A DNA stretch of 64,000 bases from contig JAHRHZ010000025.1 in the NCBI GenBank assembly GCA_024137785.1, positions 22,670,921 through 22,734,920 on the forward strand, read 5' to 3'. The translations under genes and the position numbers were made by a program. The notes beneath the pieces are model-generated. The model worked only from the letters and a program-made list of their open reading frames with translations. It made no database searches and was not told the origin of the DNA. Of the stretch, positions 247 through 62,783 are shown piece by piece. Source of the DNA: Ginglymostoma cirratum (lineage: Eukaryota). Position 1 is the stretch's first letter, and every line of letters starts with the position of its first letter.

Positions 247-334
247 ATACCGCGACCCTTAGCAATGAAGAAAGAGGGAATTCAGACCAGGAAACGCAAA
301 CCAAAGAACGTGAACAAAGACAACCCTTCTGCAG
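247..334 (+). CDS. GATA4/5/6-family transcription factor, internal exon encoding the basic region after the C-terminal zinc finger (5' exons are left of the window)
   Basis: cag|ATACCG...GCAG|gtaaac; 88 bp, phase 0 to 1; translates [29 protein letters not shown], matching the (V)PRPLAM(K/R)[13 protein letters not shown] motif of GATA4/6. Length and phase match my recollection of the equivalent human GATA4 exon. Confidence 0.96.
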
Positions 335-591
335 GTAAACAACAGTCTCCAGTATTGATGCTTTAAATATACAATCTCTTAGCTTTTCTGGTAAAGTCTT
401 CTGAGTCATGAAAAGGGATAGGAAGAGCATCAGTGCAATAATGTTAGTATTACATGCCAACCATAGGGAAGGTTTTATTGTGAATCTTTTCCAAAATACC
501 TGTTCCATGTAAGTAGTTCACCACTGCAGATTCTGAAGACAATTGTGAGAGAGACTTTCATAACTATTGTCTTTATTGTCTTTAAAAAAGA

Positions 592-902
592 GGTGCGGCG
601 CAGTGGCTCAGTGCTGCCTCACAGCACCAGGGACCCAGGTTTGATTCTACCCTCGGGCGACTGTCTGTGTGGAGTTTGCAGATTCTCCCTGTGTCTGCAT
701 GGGTTTCCTCCAGGTGCTCCAGTTTCCTCCCACAGTCCAAAAATGTGCAGACCAGGTGGATTGGCCATGCTAAATTGCCCTCAGTGTTCAGGGATGTGTA
801 GCTTAGGTGGGTTATAGGGGGATGGTTCTGGTTAGGATGCTCCTAGGGTCAGTATGGACTTGTTGGGCCAAAGGGCCTGTTTCCACTCTGTAGGGATTCT
901 GT
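592..902 (+). mobile_element. HE1/V-SINE (tRNA-derived SINE)
   Basis: tRNA-like head, V-domain gtttgcagattctccctgtgtctgcatgggtttcctccaggtgctccagtttcctcccacagtcc, and LINE-like tail aagggcctgtttccactctgtagggattct. Confidence 0.9.
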
Positions 903-1967
903 GAACTCATGATCTGAAGATTACAAATAATGAAGAAATATTCAAAGGGAAATAGCAGACACAAGTACAGTTAGTGGACAAGTCAGAGGACACTAACAGA
1001 TTTCTTGTGTTACAGGGATATTTTTCTAAAGATCCATATACTTTTTTCAGAATCTTAAATGTGCTGAAAGCAGTAGTTTGTTTTAAATTTAATGTAAGTT
1101 TTTATGTATCAGTGTTTGAGGGAAAACAAGAAGCACATGCTATTTTCTGATAAGCAGTTTTAGCAAAAAAGGGCACTGTGCACAGATGGGACTATAATGG
1201 GATAACCAGAATGCTGAAGAAATAAGCTTCAAAGACCCATTTTCATATTTTAGAAAGTATTCTTATATTGGTGGGAAATAAACCAAGCCATTCATAAGTA
1301 GAATGATATTTCAGTATAATAACTTATTTATGCTATTACATCCTACAATGGGTATTGTCTTTTTGTCCTGTAGAAATGGAAAGCTGCACTGCTTGATGAT
1401 TTTATGAATGTTGCCAATTTACTTCAACTAGTCTTCTTTCCTAAGATATGCAAAGCCATCAGTAAAATAAATGTCTTATTTCATAATACTCTCTACTCAG
1501 AAAAGATTGTTTGTAATATACACGGCCCCAATGTTTAATATACAAAGCCTAGGGAACCACGAGTAATACTGAATAAGCTCTTAAATATTCCTCATACATT
1601 TATTTATTGCCCTACATTTAGAAGAAAATTGTTAGTTTATGGATGAATATGGATTTTAATAATTTTCCTAATATCCCACAAAACACTTTATAGTAATCTA
1701 AATTTATCAGTTTTAATAATGTGAGCCACCTTCCTCACAGTTTATGAGAATTGAATGTTTTAGGATTTGGCAATCCCAAATCATAAGTGTACAAATGTAT
1801 ATGCATTTGGAGAGAATTATTTTCTCTTTCTAATGTACACAGACTGATTTCAGGTTGTATATTTGAATAAAATCAGTTTCAACATGATTTACTCAGAATA
1901 ACATATTGGGCCACATTCAGGAAATAAATTGAACTTAAATTGAAAATAAATTGAATCCTTAGTTTTC

Positions 1968-2070
1968 ATTTCTGAGGAAAGGTCTTGACTCAAAATGCTC
2001 ATCTGTCTTTTTATATTGCATATGTTGACTGATCTGCTCTTCCTTCCTAGTATTTTTAGTTTTGTTTAGC
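1968..2070 (+). mobile_element. Degenerate Penelope-like terminal fragment
   Basis: tttctgaggaaaggtc...aaaatg...gactgatctgct resembles the better-preserved termini at 37049 and 34922. Confidence 0.4.
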
Positions 2071-2239
2071 TATTTATTTTGTTGGACATGGTAGAGAACT
2101 ATTCTCTTAATTAATACCAGTTAACTGTGTTTTCAGTCTAATAAAGTACTGAACAAACATCATTTCCAAATATTAGACAACCAGTTCACAGAATACATAA
2201 CAATATTTTGCCATAATGATATTTTGGTATACCAAAGCA

Positions 2240-2797
2240 AAATCACCATTGTCCTACCAGACCATAGGGCTGCTTTCTCTTAGATGGAAGTAACTGAAGT
2301 TGGTTTAAGCTGAGGGTCACCACGCCTTAGGTGACAGAAGAGGTCTTTTTTTCATTGGTGGGAAGAAGGCATCACCCACTGGGCCAGCACTTGTTGCCCG
2401 CAGGGCAGTTAAGACTCAACCACATTGCTATGGGTCTGGAGTCACTTGTAGGCCAGACCAGGTCAGGATGGCAATTTCCTTCCCTAAAGGACAGTAGTGA
2501 ACCAGACGGTTTTTTTCAATGAAAGGCAATGGATTCATGGTTATCACTCGGCTCTTAATTCCAGATTTACATTGGAATTACTTCTGCTACAGTGGGATTT
2601 GAAGCCGTGTCCCCAGAAAATTACCTGAGTCTCTGGATTAACAGTCCAGTGATAAGACCGCTAGGTCATCACCTCCCCAGTGATCGAAAAGGAGAGTCCT
2701 TCTTCGTAACCAGAGGTAGTGTGGGAATTGAACCTACACTGTTGAGGTCACTCTGCATTGAAAACCTGCTGTCCAACCAACTGAGTTAACTGACCCT
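2240..2797 (-). mobile_element. Nested tRNA-derived SINEs (inner element about 2345-2680)
   Basis: Inner segment is homologous to 57745-58077 (ttccttccctaaaggaca...gtccagtgataa...ctagg.catcacctccc). The outer element has a tRNA-like head at about 2720-2797. Confidence 0.7.
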
Positions 2798-2966
2798 AAA
2801 ATGACCACTAAAAGCACTGCTCTCTTTCTCAACAATGTTTCTTATGAAAAGCCACTTATCATAAGTCTAACTTATTATTGAATTGCATTTAGTTTAGTTC
2901 CTTCATATTTTGCTTGTGTTATTATGATGCTTATGCACCTCTAATGTTTCTATTTTTGTTGTTAAG

Positions 2967-3091
2967 TACCCTTCTCAAGTGTGCCATCTACCCCTAGTAG
3001 CACTGCTGCTGGAGCTTTAGAACTTATCACACCAAAGACTGAACCAGGCCTTTACTCATCTGCGTGCAGAGTTCAGAAGGTCAGCTCACAG
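2967..3091 (+). CDS. GATA4-like factor, penultimate exon (Ser/Thr-rich, KTEPGL motif)
   Basis: tttttgttgttaag|TACCC...TCACAG|gtaggg; 125 bp, phase 1 to 0, in frame with the previous exon; (V)PFSSVPSTPSSTAAGALELITPKTEPGLYSSACRVQKVSSQ; cf. GATA4 [21 protein letters not shown]. Confidence 0.9.
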
Positions 3092-5714
3092 GTAGGGCCT
3101 GTGAATGGGAAAAGGGATGATCTTGTTGCACTATTCACAAAGAGACAACTAAATCAATACTTTCCATATACAAAATTCTACAACAAACAATTAAGTTCAT
3201 GTAATAAGAATGATGTTTTGGATTCAGCACAGCACTGTTCCAGGTTCCAGATACAGGTCATCATCATATTCAACAAAGGCATCTATCTCAGTAATGGTAC
3301 AATGGATTTCTCATCCAGTAGATGAGGTTAATCTGCCGTACCTAAATGGGGGCTCACATCTGGATCATGTTAAAGTTTTTTTTTCTATGCCTTTTCCTCT
3401 GATATGGGGATCAATCTGTGGTCCATAACAAAACCTGTGTCTGCTCTCGGCTTGTGGGCTGCCTAAACCTGCTATCAGGAGTGTTTCTTGGGGATATTCT
3501 CTGAGTGACTGGGAGACACCCTTAGAGATCCCCATACCTACTCTTGACTTACGAAGGGAGATTGGAAGGCTTGTCATTACTCCCACTTTAGCCCTCCCTG
3601 CCCCAAAGTCAGAGTTCACCAGAGAAGCCTTGAAGCAGCAGAAAAAAAAACCTAGATTTTACCTCACTGTCAGTTCCTGAACAAGGTCCATGCCAGAATT
3701 ATGTTGCACAGTAAGAAGAGTGGAAAATGTATTGCTAAAGTTTTAGGCAAGAAGCATAATTTATTCATCAGCTCCAAATTTTATGGGAATATTTTTGATT
3801 GTTGCTGGTCAGCATGATACTAGAAATAGTATCACAATCTACTGGTTAAAGCATAAAAGGAAATAATTGCACCCAGAGATGAAGGAATGCAAATGATAAA
3901 GTCTCACTACGACTTAGTGATACATGGTTTAGTATACAACGGAGAATTTAGCATGTCAAGTAATTATTGATATTTAGTAGCATAAGGGAGACTTTTCCTT
4001 CAACAGGTTATAGTATTTGCCATGTTTTGGATCACTGTTGATCACAATTGGATCACAATATATCAGTCTATACTCTGATCAGTGTCAGAACACAGAATCC
4101 ATTTTATGCTGACTAATTGAATGTTTGTAATTATTTTTAAATTGTGACTGTAATTTTAAAAGCATGCATTTAATTAAAAATGTTCATTCAAAACCTGTTG
4201 TCTATAAGTTCATGTTCTTATTGAACAGGCTTTAATTTTTAAAAATGTTTTGAAATGTTATTGACCAGATTTTATTTTATCACTGTCACTGCACTGGAAA
4301 AGTAAGGAAATGACTGTTAACACAAGCCCAGCTTCCTCAAAACTCCCTGCTTGAAATCCTTTCATGTTATTAATCTCTTAGTTTGCGCACAACACCCAAA
4401 TAACTTTTGTCAAAGTAATCAGTTATGATTTTGTCGTAACTCTGGAACACCAGCCAGAAAATTATCCCTAAAATGTTCCCTTATTTGACTTTGAAAGTAC
4501 AGTCCATTTAATATATTTCATCACTGCCAAATTTCATCATGAAGAATTCAGCACATTGTAAATACATAACCAAAACCTCAATATTATACTGCTGTGAAAT
4601 ACAGTGCTGAAAGGGATTAGATTTACTGGGCTTCATGTTTACTCAGAGCCAGTTATAGAGGAACTTGTGGAGGTGTAGAGGATATTGAGCTACTAAACCT
4701 AGTTGTAAGGGCTTTGCCTAGTTGTGTGATCTGACCCTAACCGTAACTCTAACCCTACTGAAATTGATGCAAAGATTTACTGGTAGATTTCCACTAAGGG
4801 AACATTGTCCAGCTACCTGCTATGGAGCCAAAACTCAATCACACAGCCATTGTTGGGTACGCCTGATATTGATGGGGTAAGGTGGAGATGGGGAAGGCGA
4901 GTCAGGGGAGGGGTCAGGGAGGGCAGGCCCATTACATTGAAGCTGACACCACATGAATGACTCTGACATCATAGAGGTGGTTGTGAACTTCTAGGGAAGG
5001 GTCTGTCATCATGGATGCTGAATGTTGGGCAATCACGAGGGACATATGGGTGTGGAAATCAACCAATTGCATGGGCCCAATCAAGAGGAGATAAGCTCTT
5101 TGATACAGGGGGAAAGATCCTCGATCCTCTTGGCTCACAAGCAGTGCAACAGAAGTATTTTCCCCATGGATCTGACCTCTCTTCTCTCCTTTAGCCTATC
5201 GGGATTCTTGAGGTCCTGCCTCAAGATATGAATTTAAAATCAGTTTGAATTGAGGCATACAGCTTTCTTTCTAAGATATTTTATTGACAGACTCATCTCC
5301 TGATGGTGTCATGATTGCCTGCCTATAACCCCCTTCTGACCTATGTCCATTAAAACTGGAAGTGAGCAGGTTGGGGTAAAGTTTTGGAGATTTAACATTT
5401 TTAACTTCTGATTCATCTCCAAACATATCTGTCTTTGATGGTTAAAGCTCCCCACTCTGGCCTCAATTTATTAGGAAATTACATGAAAATTAGCTGAATT
5501 CCTCACTTTATATGAGCTCAGATCCTTGAATGTAAAAAAGACATGTCTTGGCAGAATAGTTCTGAAGTTAATAGGATTTGAGATTAGTGCCAGATTTCTT
5601 TCAGACAATTAGTTAATATTATGAGAGACTGATATTGCACACCTAATATAACATAGACTTACCAAATGTTATGTATGCTCTACTTTAACAGCTCCCATAT
5701 CCTTTCCTTCCCAG

Positions 5715-5852
5715 GACACTTCTGTGACAGGTGACAGTAGCCTTCGCTTCAGCATTCCAGCTCTAAAACTGACAAACCCGGGTGAAGCAGCCACAAGTAG
5801 AGATTCCAAGGGAGGCAAACCTTATCCCTGGGGCAGCATGGAACTTGTCTGA
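5715..5852 (+). CDS. GATA4-like factor, last coding exon with TGA stop
   Basis: cctttccttcccag|GACACT...GTC TGA; 138 bp, phase 0; DTSVTGDSSLRFSIPALKLTNPGEAATSRDSKGGKPYPWGSMELV*; cf. GATA4 LSALKLSPQG...KQDSWNSLVLA. Confidence 0.88.
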   Translation, partial: DTSVTGDSSLRFSIPALKLTNPGEAATSRDSKGGKPYPWGSMELV

Positions 5853-43300: not shown

Positions 43301-44334
43301 CTGTAAAAGGAGAACTACAACTTTTCCAGCCCAGTTCTACGTATGCATCAAGAACATGGGTTGGGAACTGCTTTGTATGGATAGTGCAGAAGAGAGATAT
43401 ATTTCTTCCATTTTGTTACTTTTTTTTAAAAAAATTACTTCTTTCTTTAAAGGTAGGAAAAATGCAGGTCTGATTCCACAGGGTGTGGCAGCCCTGTGGT
43501 ATTCTACTCACACAATTACCACTCTTGCAGATAAAACGGTTTATAGTTAATTAAAATTAACTTCATTAATTAAAGTTAGGAATCCAAGCAACTGACCAAT
43601 TTCCCTCTGAAGCTGAGGGAGTGATTTTTATTGTGTCGTCTGAGTCCTTGACAGACCAAGGACTATACATGGGACCATAACTACTGAACCCAGCATGGCA
43701 GAGGTAGGTGATGACTGTGGCATGTTCTGCATTCACTCATCTGACAGTAAAACTATCAGCCTGGTTTACTTTCCTCATTAAGGCTATTTCAATGTTATCC
43801 ATCAACTGAAAGGGAAAGCTCAGGCTTTCACATAAAACCTTAACATATAATTTGATTAGTTTTAAGTGATAGACTAACTCTTCTTTACAATGCTAGACAT
43901 CAACACTCTGATAACAACAAACCATAAATTATGACACTGCGTCTGATGGAGTTAGAAATTAGAACAATATTTAGAAGATGGTATAAGAGAAATAAAGGGT
44001 AGAGAAGACACATTAATTCTCTTCTAAATTAGATAAAAACAAACATCTTCAAGCAATTTGAATTCCTTGTTGGTATAATTGCATCAAATAACCTAGAGTA
44101 TTCAATCTGCTTCTTCCAACAATCAGGTTATCAGTCTTCTATGGGTGAGAAAAACCTATTGATGTGGTGAGGCTGGTGGTTTTGTCGATGGTGATGTACT
44201 CGGACAAAGTGTCACAGAGGATGGTAGCTCTGGAGCATGTGGCATTACTGTGCTGAAGATAAAGTTGGACAATGGCTGAGGCAAGCAATGACTGCAGTTG
44301 CCAGGCACACACTGATTCACATTGAAAATCATTA

Positions 44335-45655
44335 CAGCTCACCTATCCGTCGCACCCCTTCCCACTGACCGATCCCTACAGACCCCCACCTGCGTCCACC
44401 TATCACCATCCCACCAACTTGCCCCCAGCCCCACCCCTCTCCATTTATTTATTTCTGAGGCAGACACCTTATATTCTGCCTCAGGAACTTACAACCCAAT
44501 GGCTTCAACATAAAGTTCACCATCTTCAAACTCTCCCCACCCCCAGCCCATGTCCAGCTCTCCCTCGGAGGATGATGCATTGGATCCGGAGTTTGGTGGG
44601 GTGTGTGGAGTCCTCATGTACCACCCCACTAACCTCCGGTTCCAACGCATCATCCTCCAGCACTTCCGCCATCTGCAATCTGACCCCACTACCAAAGACA
44701 TTTTTCCCTCCCCACCCTTATCTGCCTTCCGGAGGGACCACTCTCTCCGTGACTCCCTTGTCCGCTCCACACTCTCCACCAGCCCCACCATCCCCACCAA
44801 CCCCAGCACTTTTCCCTGCAACCGCAGGAAGTGCTACACCTGCCCCTACACCTCCCCCCTCACCCCCATCCCAGGCCCCAAGAAAACCTTCCACACCAAA
44901 CAGATGTTCACCTGCACATCTGCCAATGTGGTATATTGTAGCCGCTGTTCCAGATGCAGCCTCCTCTACATCAGGGAAACCAAGCGGAGGCTTGGAGACC
45001 ACTTTGTGGAACACCTACGCTTGGTTCGCAACAAACGACTCCCCCTCCCACTTCTTGGAATGACATGTCCATCCTGGGCCTCCTCCAGTGCCACAATGAT
45101 GCCACCTGAAGGTTACAGGAACAACGCCTCATACTTCGCCTGGGAACCCTGCAGCCCAATGGTATCAATGTGGACTTCACAAGCTTCAACATCTCCCCTC
45201 CCCCGACCGCTTCCCAAAACCAGCCCAGCTCATCCCCGCCTCCCTAACCTGTCCTTCCTCCCACCTATCCACTCCTCCCATCTCAAGCGCACCCCCCACT
45301 CCCCACCTCCTACCTACCAGCCTTAACCTGCCCCCTTGACCTGCCAGTCTTCTCTGGACTGACCTACCCCCACCCTAACTCCCCACCTACTCTCACCTTT
45401 ACTGGCTCCATCCCCGCCTCTTTGACTTGTCTGTCTCCTCTCCACCTATCTGCTCCTTTATCCATCTTCCATCCGCCTCCCCCTCTCTCTCTATTTATTT
45501 CAGAATCCCCTTCCCCTCCCCCATTTCTGAAGAAGGGTCCAGACCTGAAATGTCAGCTTTCCTGCTCCTCTGATGCTGCTTGGCCGGCTGTGTTTATCCA
45601 GCTCCACACCTTGTTATCTCAGATTCTCCAGCATCAGCAGTTCCCACTAACTCTG
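44335..45655 (+). mobile_element. Penelope-like element (GIY-YIG endonuclease region plus terminus)
   Basis: ORF 44550-45326 has PCNRRKCYTC and FTCTSANVVYCSRCSRCSLLYIRETKRRLGDHFVEHLR; C-rich 3' region; terminus ctgaagaagggtccagacctgaaatgtc; possible TSD aatcatta. Confidence 0.92.
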
Positions 45656-45660
45656 AATCA

Positions 45661-46242
45661 TTATTAACACTTGGCCACCACAAACCAGTTAACCTTGTGG
45701 TAATTTTTCTGACACCACCTACTTAAAACTCAAAAAACAAGGTCAGCAGATTATGAGACCCCACTTTCATGATTTTCAATAGGAATACAGACTGATATCA
45801 AGTGAGTATGTCTTTCTGCTTCACAGGAAGTTTCTTTAATTCCTGATCTTGCTTTGGAACACCTGCACTGCACTGCACTGCACTGCACATGCACAGACTC
45901 CATCAAAATCCCCACCTGCTAGCACTTCCAGACCGGATCATGCCTGACTGCTTCCAGCCAGAATTGAAAGCCCCTTGGGGCCCACCTTCCTGGATAAGTG
46001 GAAAGAAGAGTGATAAAGGGAGTGGTATTTCACCAGCAGCCAAGACCTCCCAATTATTCTACATCTCTCATGTCTCTTTACAGAACCAAACAAGAGTCAA
46101 GCTCAATGGGGTCTTGTCGCTTCTCTGATTCTGCCAAGCCTGTTCACTTAGCTCTGTTTTAGCTAGGAAGTACGTAAGGACAGTGGGAAGCGTATTCATA
46201 CATTCACACACCTCACTGAGCAGGTCACATGGCATTTGGTTA
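45661..46242 (-). pseudogene. Degraded 28S rRNA fragment beginning exactly at the R2 target site
   Basis: Colinear with antisense 28S: cttggccaccacaaaccagttaaccttgtggtaatttttctgacacc, agtggtatttcacc, cctcccaattattctacatctctcatgtctctt, agagtcaagctcaa, ggacagtgggaa, ggcatttggtta (= TAGCCAAATGCC). Confidence 0.9.
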
Positions 46243-49200
46243 TTTTGAAACACTTAAGTGCGTGCCTTTTCCATGTTTTCACATTGCTCGACATTGGAAT
46301 ATATTTCAATTCATGTAACCACACTGCATGTTGAGTAGAGGCCTGCCATCAGAGATCACATTCGGTCAGGTGACCATTCCAAATTAACAAGGGGATGTTT
46401 TGTGCTAGAGGAATTGAGGCTGAGCACTGTTCTGGGGTTAGTTGACTGAAGACATTGACATCATTTGACATAGTCTACTGTTGAGCAAATAACATTGAAC
46501 CATGCAAATTAGCTCTTCATTGATGAAGTCCTGCATTATGATGATACTGAAGCCATGATTTTTTTCTTTTCCTCTTTACTGCTACCATTATTTTGTGACC
46601 TATGTTGGTGTCTACTCCACACGGCCTCAGACAAAGCAGCTTAGACTAGCACCCGGAGCCAACGTTAGTCATCTCCTATTCAGAGCTGGGTCTTGCAATA
46701 TTATTACCCCACCCTGTTGTTGATGATTTGAAGCTACTCTAGCGGCAGGGATATTAGTCAGTCTTAATGTTTGCCAGGTGAATGATTTGCATTTGCAGGA
46801 ATTGCATGAGTAAATTTTTTTTTGAGCCACTTGCCTCTTGAATCCATCACAAAGCCACCAGGAACTTGGTGGCCCCTGTAAATTCCATGATCTCTTGTAC
46901 AGGCTCTTTACATTTCAGGTTTTTATCCTCCTGTGTCTGTTTTAGTGCCTTGTCATTATCCTCTTAACAGACTATGACATCCCACTGCAACTTCTTGACT
47001 CTTCTAAATATTATGACAGGTTTTTAGTGAGAGCCACTGCTCTAACTAGAAACTAGGCTAAACGGCAAAGTCCAGCCATCTTTGGTGGTGTATCATTAAT
47101 AATTGGCCCAAGGGCTTCTTGTGGCACTTTATTCTTGTGTTCTCAGCACCCAGAAATATGCAACAGTTTCATTAGGAGCCTTGCATTTCTAACAATTTTT
47201 AAAATCATATATGGTTGACCAAGCTCGAGGTTCAACCCTTTAGGGTAAAGATTGCATCGTAGCAAGAAACTGTCAATCAGATGAGACAAATTAAATTATA
47301 TACAGATTGGACCCATGTTTTGAGACTTCATCATATTTGTGGTATATGTCATGACCATATCATGGCTTTTGGAAGTTTAACCACATTGCAAATTCCCATT
47401 CCCTCCACAGTGCACATTTCTTCATTGGTTTCATCGCAGAGATATCGACCAAAATCAATGTCCCTTCAGGAAATGGAGACAGTAAGGACTGCAAATGCTG
47501 GAAGCTAGCCCCCAACACCTCATCTTCATCATGGACTTCCAGTCTCTGTACACCTGTACTCCCCACATGGATGGTCTAAAAGCCCTGTTCCTTCCTCTCC
47601 CATAGGCCAAACCAGTCCCCCTCCACAGATACACTCATTCGCTTGGCAGAACTGGTCTTCACCATCAACAATTTTTCCTTTGATTCCTCCCACTTCCTAT
47701 AGACCAAAAGGGTGGCTATGGGCACCTGCATGGGCCCCGGGCTATGCCTGCCTCTTTGTAGGATTCGTCGAACAGTCCCTCTTCAGCAACTACACTGACA
47801 CCATCCCTCGCCTCTTTCTCCGCTGCATTGATTACTGCTGTATCAGTGCTGCCTTGTGCTCCCGCAAGGAGCTCAAACAGTTCAATGACTTTGCCAACAC
47901 CTTCCATGAGCGCCCTCAAATTCACCTTCCTCCCCTTCCTGGACCTCTCTGTCTCGATCTCCAGTAACTGACTCACCCCGACATCCATTTCAAACCCAGT
48001 GACTCCCACAATTACCTCGACTACACCTCCACTCACCCACCGTCCTGCAAAAAAATGCTATCCCACACTCCCAATTCCTCTGACTTCGCTGCATCTGCTC
48101 CCAGGATGAGGTGTTCTACTCTAGGAGTTCTCAGATATCCTCCTACTTTAGGGACTGTAGTTTCTCCTCCTCGGTTATTAAGGATGCCCTCAACTGCATT
48201 GCCCCCATTTCCCATGCTTCTGCCCTCAAACCCTCTCCACCCAACAATGATAGAGCTCACTTAGCCCTCACGTACCACCCCACCAACCTCCAACTACAAC
48301 ACATCATCCTCCTACATTTCCGCCACCTACAATCAGACCCCACCATCAAAAAGATATTTCCCTCCCCACCCCTGTCCGCTTTCCGCAGGGACCGTTTATT
48401 CCACGATTCCCTCATCAGCTCCACACTCCCCACCAACCCCCTCCACCAAGCCCGGTACCTTTCTCTGCAACCACAGGAGGAAATACACCTCCCTTCTCAC
48501 CTCCATCCAAAGCCCTAAATAATCCGTCTAAGTCTGGCAGAGATTCACCTGCACTTAGCATCTGCGCTCTGCAGGTACCAACCAACATGACCTTCCAGTT
48601 GCAATGCACCTGAACTCACCTTCCCACTCCCCCAGTGACATGTCCATCCTTGGCCTCCTCTGCTGTCAGTGTGAGGCCAAATGTAAACTGAAAAAACACC
48701 TCATATTTTGCCTCAGGAGCTTACAGCCCATTGATCTGAATATTGACTTCACCATCTTCAAAATCTCTCCACCCCCAACCTGTCCATCTTCCAACTCACC
48801 TATGCATTCCACCCTTCCCATTGACCAACCACGATAACCCCCCTACCTGCATTAATCTATCTCCATCCTGCCAACCTCCCCTCAGCCCCACCCACTCCCT
48901 CTATTTATTTCTGGGCTCCCCTACCCCCTCAAAACGTTTCAGCCTGAAACACCGACTTCCCTGTTCATCAGATGCTGCGTGACCTGCTGTGCTTTCTCAG
49001 CTTCACATTTATTTTTTTTCTCTTCAGGAAATGTTCAATTTCCCAGAGCGCTAACAGTCCCTTGTTGCTGTGTTGCATTCATCTCAGAATTGGAATGGCT
49101 CCTGAATCACTGAGTCTATGGACGTTTTGAGTGCTTCACGTTTGAATTAATCACAGGTAGAATTCGCACTTCAAAAGTTGGCCTGCTGATCCCCCCACTA

Positions 49201-49689: not shown

Positions 49690-51245
49690 ATAAAGGCAGT
49701 TAAAATGAGTGGAAAAAAGCTTGGCAGATGGAACATGATGTAGGAAAATGCGAGGTTTTGCACTTTGGCAGGAAGAACACAAGCTGAATAGGATTTAAAT
49801 GGAAAAAGACTGCAGAAAGGTGTAGCGCAGAGGATTTGGCAGCGCTTCTGTATGAATTACAAAAAGCAAGCATTCAAGTTCAGCAGTTAATGAGGAAGGC
49901 AAATGGAATGTTGGCCATTATTTCAAAGGAAATGGAGCATAAAAATAGGGAGGATTTGCTAAAATTATACAAGGCACTCATTAGACCACACCTAGAATAC
50001 TATGAACAGTTTTGGTCCCCTCAGAAAGGAAATAATTTACTGTCACTGAAGACAGTCCAAAGAAGGTTCACTTGGTTCATCCCAGATATAAAGGGATTTC
50101 CCATGAAGACAGGTTAAGTAGTTAGACATAGACTCATTGGAATTTACAATTGGAATTAACAAGATTCTTAAGAGACTTGACATGTTAAATGCAGAAATGT
50201 TTTTTGAATCGAGGACTATAGAGTTTAATTTCAGGGTGTTAAACCGTTATTAAATTAGAAAGGGTGCAAAAAAGATTTTACAAGGACTTTACCAAGACTG
50301 GAGGGTTTGACTTAAGAAGAGGCTGGGACTTTTTTTCCTGGAGCATAAGAGGCTGATGGGAGTGACCTTATAGTGGCTTGTAAGGTCACGAGAGGCAAAG
50401 ATAAGGTCTTTTCCCCCGGGGAGGGGAATCTAAAACTAGAGGGCATAGTCTTAAGGTTGAGACAGGAAAGATTTACAAGGGATCTGAGGGGCAACTTTTC
50501 TACAGAGGGTGGTGCACATAAGGAATGAGCTGCCAGAAGAAGTGGTAGAGGTCGAGTATAGTTACAAGATTTAAAAGGCATTGGGCAGGTACATGGATAG
50601 GAAAGGTTTAGAAGGAAATGAGCCAAATTAAGACAAATGGGACTAGTTCAGTTTAGGAAACCAGGTTGGCATGGACGAGTTGGGCTGAAGGGTCTATTTC
50701 TGTGCTGAATGACTCTATGACTAGTAAGGGATTGCCCACTTAAGTCAAAGATAATTAGGAATTTATTCTCAGAGGGTAGTGAATCTATGAAATTTCTTTC
50801 AAAGAAAGCAAAATACAATAAATGTTGGAAATTGGAAATAAAAAGTGAGAGTGGCTGAAAAACCCAACATGCCCTGGAACATCCATGGAGAGACAAACAG
50901 AGTTAATGTTTCCAGTCCAAAGGCCCTATTCCAAAGAAGTGCCTTTGGTGTTGAAACATTAACTTTGTTTCTGTCTTCATAGGTGCTGCCAGACCAGCTG
51001 CGTTTCTCCGGTAACTTATTTTCATTTCTGTAGAATTCTTTACCGCAGAGGGCTGTTAAGGCAGGATCACAAACATCATTCAAGGCAGAGAGGCAGATTT
51101 TCAACCTGTAAGGGAATCAAGGGGTATGGGGAAAAGGAAAGTAAGTGAAATTGAGGATTGCCAGATTAGACATAATCTATTTGGATGGTACAGCAGCCTC
51201 GATGAGCCTTCAAATAGCCTACTTCTGCATCTATGTCTTATGATT
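49690..51245 (+). mobile_element. CR1 LINE with a nested CR1 3' end (about 50255-50722) and inverted Penelope-like termini (about 50800-51025)
   Basis: KANGMLAII...LLKLYKALIRPHLEY..QFWSP; nested copy ends gactctatgact; outer copy resumes gaattctttaccgcagagggctg. Confidence 0.85.
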
Positions 51246-55487: not shown

Positions 55488-55675
55488 TTATAGGATTTCT
55501 TCCCTTTGTTTCTTAGTTTTTTGAACTACTTGGCCATTGTGGATTGATCCATTCTGGTTTCGCAGTAATTTCCCTTTCTCTCTGTCTGGCCAGGTGAAGA
55601 TTGCTTCATCACTGTCAAGTTCAGATTCTGAAACCATTAAGCTGGTGTTCTGTGCTGGAGCTTTCAGCCTGCCAA
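55488..55675 (-). CDS. KIAA0319L: KIAA0319-like (AAV receptor), last coding exon
   Basis: cattatag|TTGGC...TAA; (V)GRLKAPAQNTSLMVSESELDSDEAIFTWPDREKGKLLRNQNGSIHNGQVVQKTKKQREEIL*; matches human SLMHSESELDSDDAIFTWPDREKGKLL...QNGS...REEIL. Confidence 0.97.
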
Positions 55676-62692: not shown

Positions 62693-62783
62693 CTTTTACA
62701 GAAGCAGAGGACCATCCAAACTAAAATTCCAATGGCAACCAATATGACAAATGCAGCTATGACAACGTAGAGCACGCTCCACT
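62693..62783 (-). CDS. KIAA0319L: KIAA0319L transmembrane exon (gene continues right of the window)
   Basis: ttttcacttttag|AGTGG...AAAAG|gtaaag; 91 bp, phase 1 to 2; (E)WSVLYVVIAAFVILVAIGILVWMVLCFCK(R) versus human EWSVLYVIIATFVIVVALGILSWTVICCCKR. Confidence 0.97.

What the first reader, a model, noticed from the sequence alone, without database searches (positions are those of the whole stretch)
247..5852. Candidate fourth GATA4/5/6 ohnolog beside KIAA0319L
Seen: three intact, phase-compatible exons of a GATA4/5/6-class gene, convergent with KIAA0319L about 50 kb away. Known: human has only GATA4 (8p23, near BLK/NEIL2/FDFT1), GATA5 (20q13, RBBP8NL/CABLES2) and GATA6 (18q11, RBBP8/CABLES1). 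KIAA0319L is on 1p34, the member of this paralogon that carries LCK (paralog of BLK/HCK/LYN) but no GATA gene. Inference: this is the missing 2R copy, sister to GATA4, kept in cartilaginous fish. The open frames and canonical splice sites suggest it is still functional.
Basis: partly seen in the sequence, partly recalled or inferred. Interest (0 to 1): 0.88.

Follow-up and report, generated by a model that had tools for sequence, protein, structure and literature searches.

The report
Missing GATA4 sister found in sharks
This shark DNA holds the end of an intact GATA heart-and-gut regulator gene shared by sharks, rays and chimaeras, which is likely the long-missing twin of our GATA4 from the early vertebrate genome doubling, kept while these fish apparently lost GATA4 itself.

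Summary
The three exons are real and complete an unbroken 388-aa, six-exon GATA4/5/6 gene. It lies between ADPRHL2 and KIAA0319L, on the contig that also carries LCK, a FAM167 gene and a TFAP2 gene. Orthologues occur in 18 named sharks, rays and a chimaera and in no bony vertebrate listed. In the elephant shark it shares a scaffold with LCK, not BLK (PMC7406891, Table S3). Trees put it on the GATA4 side, outside bony-vertebrate GATA4, at ohnologue-like distance.

It is not an extra fourth copy. This assembly shows only this gene, GATA5 and GATA6, and two protein searches listed no second chondrichthyan GATA4. The assembly is blank where GATA4 would lie, so that loss rests on other species.

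Best reading (0.62): the 'GATA4-ogm' predicted in 2009, kept by reciprocal loss. Main rival: true GATA4 moved (0.2). Databases call it GATA4 or GATA4-like; ten paper searches found no such interpretation, and the scan had not noted it before.

The parts
247..334 (+). Coding exon 4 of the GATA4-like gene: basic tail of the C-terminal zinc finger
   Evidence: AG/GT sites, 88 nt, in frame; matched by bird and coelacanth GATA4 queries
2967..3091 (+). Coding exon 5: Ser/Thr-rich region with the KTEPG motif also seen in bony-vertebrate GATA4
   Evidence: AG/GT sites, 125 nt; same exon content in P0002-P0009 and motif in P0029/P0031
5715..5852 (+). Coding exon 6 with stop codon; the C-terminus ends in a clade-specific variant of the W-x-x-L-x-L tail
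   Evidence: Only acceptor in 5680-5720 that gives an open frame; conserved in sharks, rays and chimaera
55488..55668 (-). Last coding exon of the convergent neighbour KIAA0319L (context, not part of the GATA gene)
   Evidence: Open frame and stop; gene identity from its PKD exon; assigning this exon to that gene is partly recalled
62693..62783 (-). Transmembrane exon of KIAA0319L (context; boundaries approximate)
   Evidence: Splice-bounded hydrophobic exon candidate

Best explanation
This is an intact two-zinc-finger GATA4/5/6 transcription factor gene that is likely the second-round genome-duplication sister of bony-vertebrate GATA4 (the predicted 'GATA4-ogm'), kept by cartilaginous fish, which apparently lost GATA4 proper. 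Shown: the whole reading frame, its neighbours, its presence across sharks, rays and a chimaera, and its place on the GATA4 side of the tree. Inferred history: the first duplication split GATA4-side from GATA5/6-side genes, and the second gave GATA4 (BLK chromosome) and this copy (LCK chromosome). This copy changed fast while redundant. Bony vertebrates then lost it and cartilaginous fish lost GATA4, so each lineage has three genes, but not the same three. Inferred function, from established GATA biology and untested here: the C-finger binds WGATAR sites, the N-finger binds cofactors such as FOG2, the N-terminal domain activates transcription, and the gene stands in for GATA4 in heart, gut endoderm and gonad.
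For: Location: same 43.3-Mb contig as a kinase whose SH2 exon best matches LCK, one of the two FAM167 genes and a TFAP2 gene 1 Mb away; ADPRHL2 and KIAA0319L flank it. PMC7406891 supplements put elephant-shark XP_007902515 (our P0008) on scaffold NW_006890174.1 with LCK, 1.3 Mb apart, and BLK on another scaffold. They give LCK on chicken 23 and GATA4 and BLK on chicken 3. The skate gene named Gata4 is on Leri_26C, which that paper tentatively labels 'KJ_2beta?'. The bony-type block NEIL2-FDFT1-CTSB survives on another contig. The contig is 1.0% of the assembly, so a random move would seldom land there (my arithmetic). Tree: clade 100/100; GATA5+GATA6 99/96; joining it to GATA5 or GATA6 is rejected (p-AU 0.022 each); joining it to GATA4 is 2.75 lnL better than the free quick tree (p 0.645). 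Distance to coelacanth GATA4 is 0.63, against 0.28-0.33 for shark-coelacanth orthologues and 0.57-0.74 for GATA5-GATA6 pairs. It has 13 clade-fixed changes at sites uniform in GATA4, 5 and 6, and only 1 site shared with GATA4 alone, a state also in 4 of 5 outgroups. No second chondrichthyan GATA4 among the best 120 of 824 hits or the best 120 of 613 hits, where 28 of 28 chondrichthyan rows are GATA5 or GATA6. Beta segments are reported to evolve faster (PMC10115646, section 7). Two skate proteins from assembled sequencing contigs of 1.9 kb hold the whole frame, which implies spliced RNA (inference).
Against: Almost all the distance to GATA4 lies on this gene's own stem (0.44-0.45). The bony GATA4 stem (0.065) equals those of GATA5 and GATA6 (0.071, 0.076), which is what plain orthology plus acceleration would also give. 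Its place is unstable: beside cyclostomes at 81/66, basal and unsupported in the 33-row quick tree. No close neighbour shared with a GATA4, 5 or 6 locus was identified in the 200 kb upstream and 80 kb downstream read, and LCK is 21.6 Mb away here. Absence of GATA4 in this assembly is uninformative: the contig reads N beside FAM167A for at least 189 kb and in 11 of 11 further samples, about 97 kb of the 308 kb upstream of NEIL2 is N, and BLK itself was not found. Both protein searches show only 120 rows, and this gene's own clade missed the list, so a diverged GATA4 could be missed too. No read-level expression data were obtained.
Confidence: 0.62

Rival explanations
1. It is the true GATA4 orthologue, moved from the BLK-NEIL2 site to the LCK chromosome in the chondrichthyan ancestor and then evolving fast. 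The databases' names would be right.
For: Three GATA4/5/6 genes per chondrichthyan, as in bony vertebrates. Best non-chondrichthyan vertebrate hits are GATA4. The bony GATA4 stem is as short as the GATA5 and GATA6 stems. Sister position is preferred. Gene order is reported as heavily disrupted between chondrichthyans and bony fish (PMC10115646, section 6).
Against: It needs a move onto exactly the one paralogon member that lacks a GATA gene (about 1% of this assembly by length). The stem shared with GATA4 is only 0.04-0.05, against 0.23-0.30 from the same depth to crown GATA5 and GATA6. All five coding introns are kept, so it is not a retrocopy. NEIL2-FDFT1-CTSB did not move with it.
Confidence: 0.2
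2. One reading: it is the fourth ohnologue and cartilaginous fish still have GATA4 too, hidden in a repeat-rich region that assembles badly.
For: The expected site is N or fragmented here: the NEIL2 contig is 1.3 Mb and about half repeats. BLK was not found, and only 3 TFAP2 genes were. The elephant-shark BLK is listed at 5.42 kb of its scaffold, so a neighbour could fall off the end.
Against: GATA5, GATA6 or this gene were recovered from more than 20 named chondrichthyan species, but a second GATA4 from none of the rows listed. Of 174 proteins checked (27 unnamed, hypothetical or oddly named hits and 147 representatives), none of the GATA4-side rows printed looked like one. Shark GATA5 and GATA6 are only 4-6 points further from coelacanth than tetrapod ones are, so a normal shark GATA4 should have ranked near the tetrapod GATA4s that were listed.
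Confidence: 0.1
3. Late exchange between the two duplicated chromosomes: the GATA4 locus stayed interchangeable between the BLK and LCK chromosomes until sharks and bony fish split, and each fixed it on a different one.
For: It would explain both the paralogous location and the orthologue-length bony GATA4 stem.
Against: The second duplication is described as an allotetraploidy with distinct alpha and beta sets, which should limit such exchange (established expectation). It does not by itself explain the long stem.
Confidence: 0.08

Closest known systems
GATA4 of bony vertebrates (coelacanth P0031, lungfish P0029)
   Same: GATA-N plus two GATA fingers; six coding exons; KTEPG motif; nearest vertebrate relatives by score; same side of the GATA5/6 split.
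   Different: About 60% identity over aligned columns, near paralogue level (57-59%) and below shark-coelacanth orthologues (65-73%). It sits with LCK, ADPRHL2 and KIAA0319L, not BLK and NEIL2. 13 clade-fixed changes, 4 in the finger region.
'GATA4-ogm', the predicted missing ohnologue (Gillis et al. 2009, PMC2857956; passages read)
   Same: Predicted sister of GATA4 from the second duplication, on the fourth member of the paralogon.
   Different: That paper could identify neither the gene nor its paralogon, and the word 'shark' does not occur in its main text.
Database entries 'transcription factor GATA-4-like' (17 elasmobranchs) and 'GATA-4' (Callorhinchus milii, XP_007902515)
   Same: The same gene: one clade with the window gene at 100/100.
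   Different: Named by similarity. PMC7406891 lists the elephant-shark copy with the GATA4/5/6 genes and draws it at the GATA4 label of its tree; the passages I saw do not remark on its LCK linkage.
nkx2.5-like of zebra shark and thorny skate (PMC12019251; passages read)
   Same: A cardiac-family ohnologue found in chondrichthyans and not in bony fish, while another member (nkx2.6/7) was not found in chondrichthyans.
   Different: A different family; there nkx2.5 and nkx2.5l coexist, whereas here the direct sister appears to be the one lost.

Membership tests
GATA4/5/6 subfamily | Two C4 GATA zinc fingers with basic tail | tested here: met
   Both fingers over the Pfam cut-off in the genome; cysteines intact in the alignment
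GATA4/5/6 subfamily | GATA-N activation domain (PF05349) | tested here: met
   E 7e-27 on orthologue P0002; own exon 1 aligns with shark GATA5 and GATA6 exon 1
GATA4/5/6 subfamily | Binds WGATAR DNA and activates heart and endoderm genes | not testable with these tools
   Inferred from conserved fingers only
GATA4 orthologue | Supported clade with bony-vertebrate GATA4, excluding cyclostome genes, as for GATA5 and GATA6 | tested here: inconclusive
   Not recovered in free searches; not rejected and slightly better when imposed
GATA4 orthologue | Position between BLK and NEIL2-FDFT1-CTSB | tested here: not met
   Neighbours are ADPRHL2 and KIAA0319L; NEIL2-FDFT1-CTSB is on C269; elephant-shark BLK is on another scaffold
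GATA4 orthologue | Shark-to-coelacanth distance like that of GATA5 and GATA6 orthologues | tested here: not met
   0.63 against 0.28-0.33; rate acceleration could explain it
GATA5 or GATA6 orthologue or duplicate | Groups with GATA5 or GATA6; lies next to an RBBP8-family gene | tested here: not met
   AU p 0.022 each; separate GATA5 (C88) and GATA6 (C77) lie 0.3-0.35 Mb from RBBP8-family genes
Second-round ohnologue GATA4-ogm | Lies on the fourth, LCK-bearing member of the paralogon | tested here: met
   elephant-shark and chicken positions from PMC7406891 supplements
Second-round ohnologue GATA4-ogm | Older than the shark/chimaera split; not a recent duplicate | tested here: met
   Callorhinchus is basal in the clade, which follows species relationships
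Second-round ohnologue GATA4-ogm | Split from GATA4 predates the shark/bony-fish split | tested here: inconclusive
   Total distance fits, stem asymmetry does not settle it
Second-round ohnologue GATA4-ogm | Coexists with GATA4 in at least one genome | tested here: inconclusive
   None listed; the expected site is unreadable in this assembly. Reciprocal loss predicts none.

The most novel reading that the evidence does not exclude
No living cartilaginous fish has GATA4. Their hearts, guts and gonads are built with the 'ghost' ohnologue that bony vertebrates discarded, so the jawed-vertebrate ancestor had four GATA4/5/6 genes, and every shark-versus-mouse 'Gata4' comparison has compared paralogues with their own regulatory landscapes and altered N-finger and activation motifs.
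Probability: 0.6. Interest if true: 0.78.

Novelty: new member of a known kind. Interest (0 to 1): 0.66.

Why it matters
GATA4 is a core regulator of heart, endoderm and gonad (established knowledge). A 2009 study predicted a lost fourth GATA4/5/6 copy and could not place it. If this is that copy, the ancestral jawed-vertebrate set is complete and the orthology of shark 'Gata4' has to be revised. It also gives a natural swap experiment: can a sister gene with different flanking enhancers and 13 fixed changes do GATA4's job? Shark-retained ohnologues as a class are known (135 in PMC13450315, 19 in PMC10115646), which tempers the surprise. Reciprocal loss of so central a gene is the unusual part.

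Tried and rejected
C76 GATA-domain hit: a single finger that I recognise as TRPS1 (recalled), not a seventh GATA. PF00494 hit on C75: recognised as NDUFAF6 (recalled), not FDFT1, so the 200 kb fetched there served only as repeat-mask material. Src-type kinase on C148: BLK was its best Src-family match by only 2 bits on 37 aa, with SHP2 entries scoring higher; its neighbours look like RBM12, CPNE1 and SNTA1 (recalled), so I rejected it as BLK. Arowana GATA-4-like (P0241/P0377) shares two motifs with the shark clade but nests among ray-finned-fish GATA4s (100/99), so it is not a bony-fish survivor. The cathepsin-propeptide family search rang nowhere, controls included; CTSB was recognised later by recalled motifs. 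A Pfam scan of two window ORFs found nothing. Sequencing-run search: no RNA holder listed; no reads were laid, so there is no junction evidence. The 33-row careful tree did not finish; its quick tree was used, and the AU tests rest on it (21 of 54 rows dropped: long or redundant rows). Searches dropped 1 and 2 long rows. dN/dS was not computed (no DNA from other species). No amphioxus or tunicate sequence was in the trees. Literature: ten searches listed no paper proposing this reading; the library lacks most subscription journals. The PMC13450315 supplement held as text had no GATA hits; the PMC8302630 supplements had none in 5 files searched, with file 4 not searched; the 68-gene list of PMC10115646 is not in the held table. 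Any of these, or the ohnologs.com database, may already flag the gene.
Full report
Observation. The window starts inside a GATA gene. Exons at 247-334, 2967-3091 and 5715-5852 have AG/GT ends and compatible phases and splice to an open frame ending in TGA. The two finger exons lie 2.8 and 6.7 kb before the window and the first coding exon 17 kb before it. The six exons (523, 167, 126, 88, 125, 138 nt) give 388 aa with no internal stop. KIAA0319L is convergent, its stop 49.6 kb away. ADPRHL2 starts about 170 kb upstream on the other strand. The genome is a shark: its GATA6 exon 1 is 96-100% identical to carpet-shark GATA6 proteins.

GATA genes in this assembly. The GATA-domain search scored 127 of 127 candidates and found six two-finger genes plus unrelated single-domain hits. 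Three are GATA1/2/3-type by finger sequence (C209, C64, C46; names recalled). Three are GATA4/5/6-type: this gene (C25), GATA5 (C88) and GATA6 (C77). GATA5 and GATA6 each lie 0.3-0.35 Mb from an RBBP8-family gene. Searches with bird and coelacanth GATA4 added nothing (one search ran with a stricter filter).

Why that absence is weak. NEIL2-FDFT1-CTSB, the block beside GATA4 in bony vertebrates (order recalled; a bird GATA4-NEIL2 fused model, P0042, shows the adjacency), lies in order on a 1.3-Mb repeat-rich contig. There is no GATA match in the 308 kb read upstream of NEIL2, but about 97 kb of that is N. Beside the second FAM167 gene, where BLK and GATA4 would be, the contig reads N for at least 189 kb and in 11 of 11 further samples. 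BLK was not found either, although the elephant shark has it. This control fails, so this assembly cannot show that GATA4 is lost.

Other species. The first coding exon found 8 clusters among 8,000 scored candidates, all chondrichthyan. Their members come from 18 named species, including the chimaera. With the sevengill-shark protein as query, the best 120 of 824 hits were 9 rows of this clade, 108 bony-vertebrate GATA4 rows (unnamed ones assigned), 2 GATA5 and 1 mite protein. A profile of shark GATA5, shark GATA6 and coelacanth GATA4 N-termini listed 120 of 613 hits: 28 of 28 chondrichthyan rows are GATA5 or GATA6, and every GATA4 row is a bony vertebrate. Shark GATA5 and GATA6 are only 4-6 points less like coelacanth than tetrapod ones are, so an ordinary shark GATA4 should have been listed. 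No bony-vertebrate member of the clade appeared; the arowana candidate nests among ray-finned-fish GATA4s.

Location. Contig C25 also carries a kinase best matching LCK, a FAM167 gene 0.1 Mb from it, and a TFAP2 gene 1 Mb from the GATA gene (the TFAP2 subtype was not determined). PMC7406891 (passages, section 14, supplements S3 and S5) treats GATA4/5/6, SRC-B, DLGAP, STMN and XKR as one paralogon. It has LCK, DLGAP3 and a stathmin on chicken 23, and GATA4, BLK and DLGAP2 on chicken 3. Its table gives the elephant shark three GATA4/5/6 genes. The 'GATA4' is XP_007902515, our P0008, 1.3 Mb from LCK on one scaffold, with BLK elsewhere. So the LCK linkage predates the shark/chimaera split. In the little-skate supplement 'Gata4' is on Leri_26C, a chromosome tentatively marked as a 2-beta copy; that this is the same gene is my inference. 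In skates and rays without large fusions the gene is on 33-42 Mb sequences, like GATA5 in skates (38-42 Mb) and unlike GATA6 (110-122 Mb). Against: no shared close neighbour with other GATA4/5/6 loci was identified, and LCK is 21.6 Mb away in this shark.

Trees. In the careful 54-row tree (LG+C20+F+G4) the clade is 100/100 with a stem of 0.60 and the chimaera basal. GATA5 and GATA6 each unite sharks and bony vertebrates (100/100, 100/99) and join each other (99/96). This clade falls on the other side with GATA4 and the cyclostome genes, unresolved (72/55; with cyclostomes 81/66, which I read as long-branch pull). On 33 rows, forcing it with GATA4 improves lnL by 2.75 (p-AU 0.645); forcing it with GATA5 or GATA6 is rejected (p 0.022). 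With it held as sister to GATA4, its distance to coelacanth GATA4 is 0.63, against 0.28-0.33 for orthologues and 0.57-0.74 for GATA5-GATA6 pairs. But 0.45 of that is its own stem, the shared stem is 0.04-0.05 and the bony GATA4 stem is 0.065. GATA4 is slow throughout: 0.11 from the deep node to the bony crown, against 0.31-0.37. Scaling by that rate, my rough expectation for shared and bony stems is 0.03 and 0.08 under ohnology and 0.09 and 0.02 under orthology. The observed values are nearer ohnology, but long-branch pull biases that way, so this is weak. Since the chimaera split the gene has stayed nearly as conserved as its paralogues (82% against 85-86% identity), though its tree distance is larger (0.20 against 0.07-0.12).

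How it likely works. Both fingers, the basic tail and GATA-N are present. Thirteen positions uniform in GATA4, 5 and 6 are changed and fixed in this clade. They include three around the end of the N-finger (own positions 215, 216, 227), one after the C-finger (273) and three in the N-terminal activation motif (28, 33, 34). From established GATA biology I infer a WGATAR-binding activator working with FOG2 and NKX2-5-type partners, filling GATA4's role in heart, gut and gonad. None of that was tested. Full-length skate proteins on 1.9-kb assembled contigs imply spliced transcripts; direct read evidence was not obtained.

What is known. PMC2857956 (passages) proposed a GATA4/GATA4-ogm pair and could not find the second paralogon. 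PMC7712675 (passages) used the Callorhinchus sequence simply as gata4. PMC12019251 (passages) reports a comparable case for nkx2.5-like. PMC13450315 (passages, one supplement) and PMC10115646 (sections 6-7, passages, stored supplement) report shark-retained ohnologues without naming GATA in what I could read. PMC12955574 mentions GATA4 only in a reference. PMC8302630: supplements searched only, no hits. Other papers were seen as search listings only. Ten searches listed no paper with this reading. The scan's own notes hold three analogous shark ohnologue cases and nothing on this gene.

Verdict. The gene is probably the missing second-round sister of GATA4 (0.72 in all: 0.62 with GATA4 lost, 0.10 with GATA4 still hidden), against a moved orthologue (0.20) or late exchange (0.08). 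The protein is already in databases under the GATA4 name; what is new is its identity and the apparent reciprocal loss. Interest 0.66.

Noticed in passing
L147:7252-8028 and L148:1669-4635 (G000:C148): A strongly diverged Src-family kinase, 36-63% identical to the LCK exons of this genome, with DFC where kinases usually have DFG. It lies next to genes I recognise as RBM12, CPNE1 and SNTA1 (names recalled).
   Followed up: partly
G000, whole-genome family searches: Only three TFAP2 genes and no clear BLK were found, so genes of the BLK-side chromosome end seem under-represented in this assembly.
   Followed up: partly
L005:1387-2826 (G000:C209): The GATA1-type gene's C-finger exon frame stays open for 480 codons through a Pro/Ser-rich tandem repeat.
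   Followed up: no
L022:2670-3192: Exon 1 in this shark has a long poly-Ser and poly-Ala expansion and lacks a short stretch present in the other sharks' proteins. No carpet-shark copy of the protein was listed.
   Followed up: no
P0241 / P0377 (Scleropages formosus GATA-4-like): A fast-evolving second GATA4 in arowana shares the RREG and GIPRP changes with the shark clade, apparently by convergence; it nests among ray-finned-fish GATA4s.
   Followed up: yes
P0042: A bird gene model fuses GATA4 to NEIL2, probably an annotation artefact of the two adjacent genes.
   Followed up: no
window 44300-48600 and 49800-50100: Long open frames of two repeat families that recur in every contig read: a retroelement with endonuclease-like motifs and a LINE reverse-transcriptase fragment (types recalled).
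   Followed up: no
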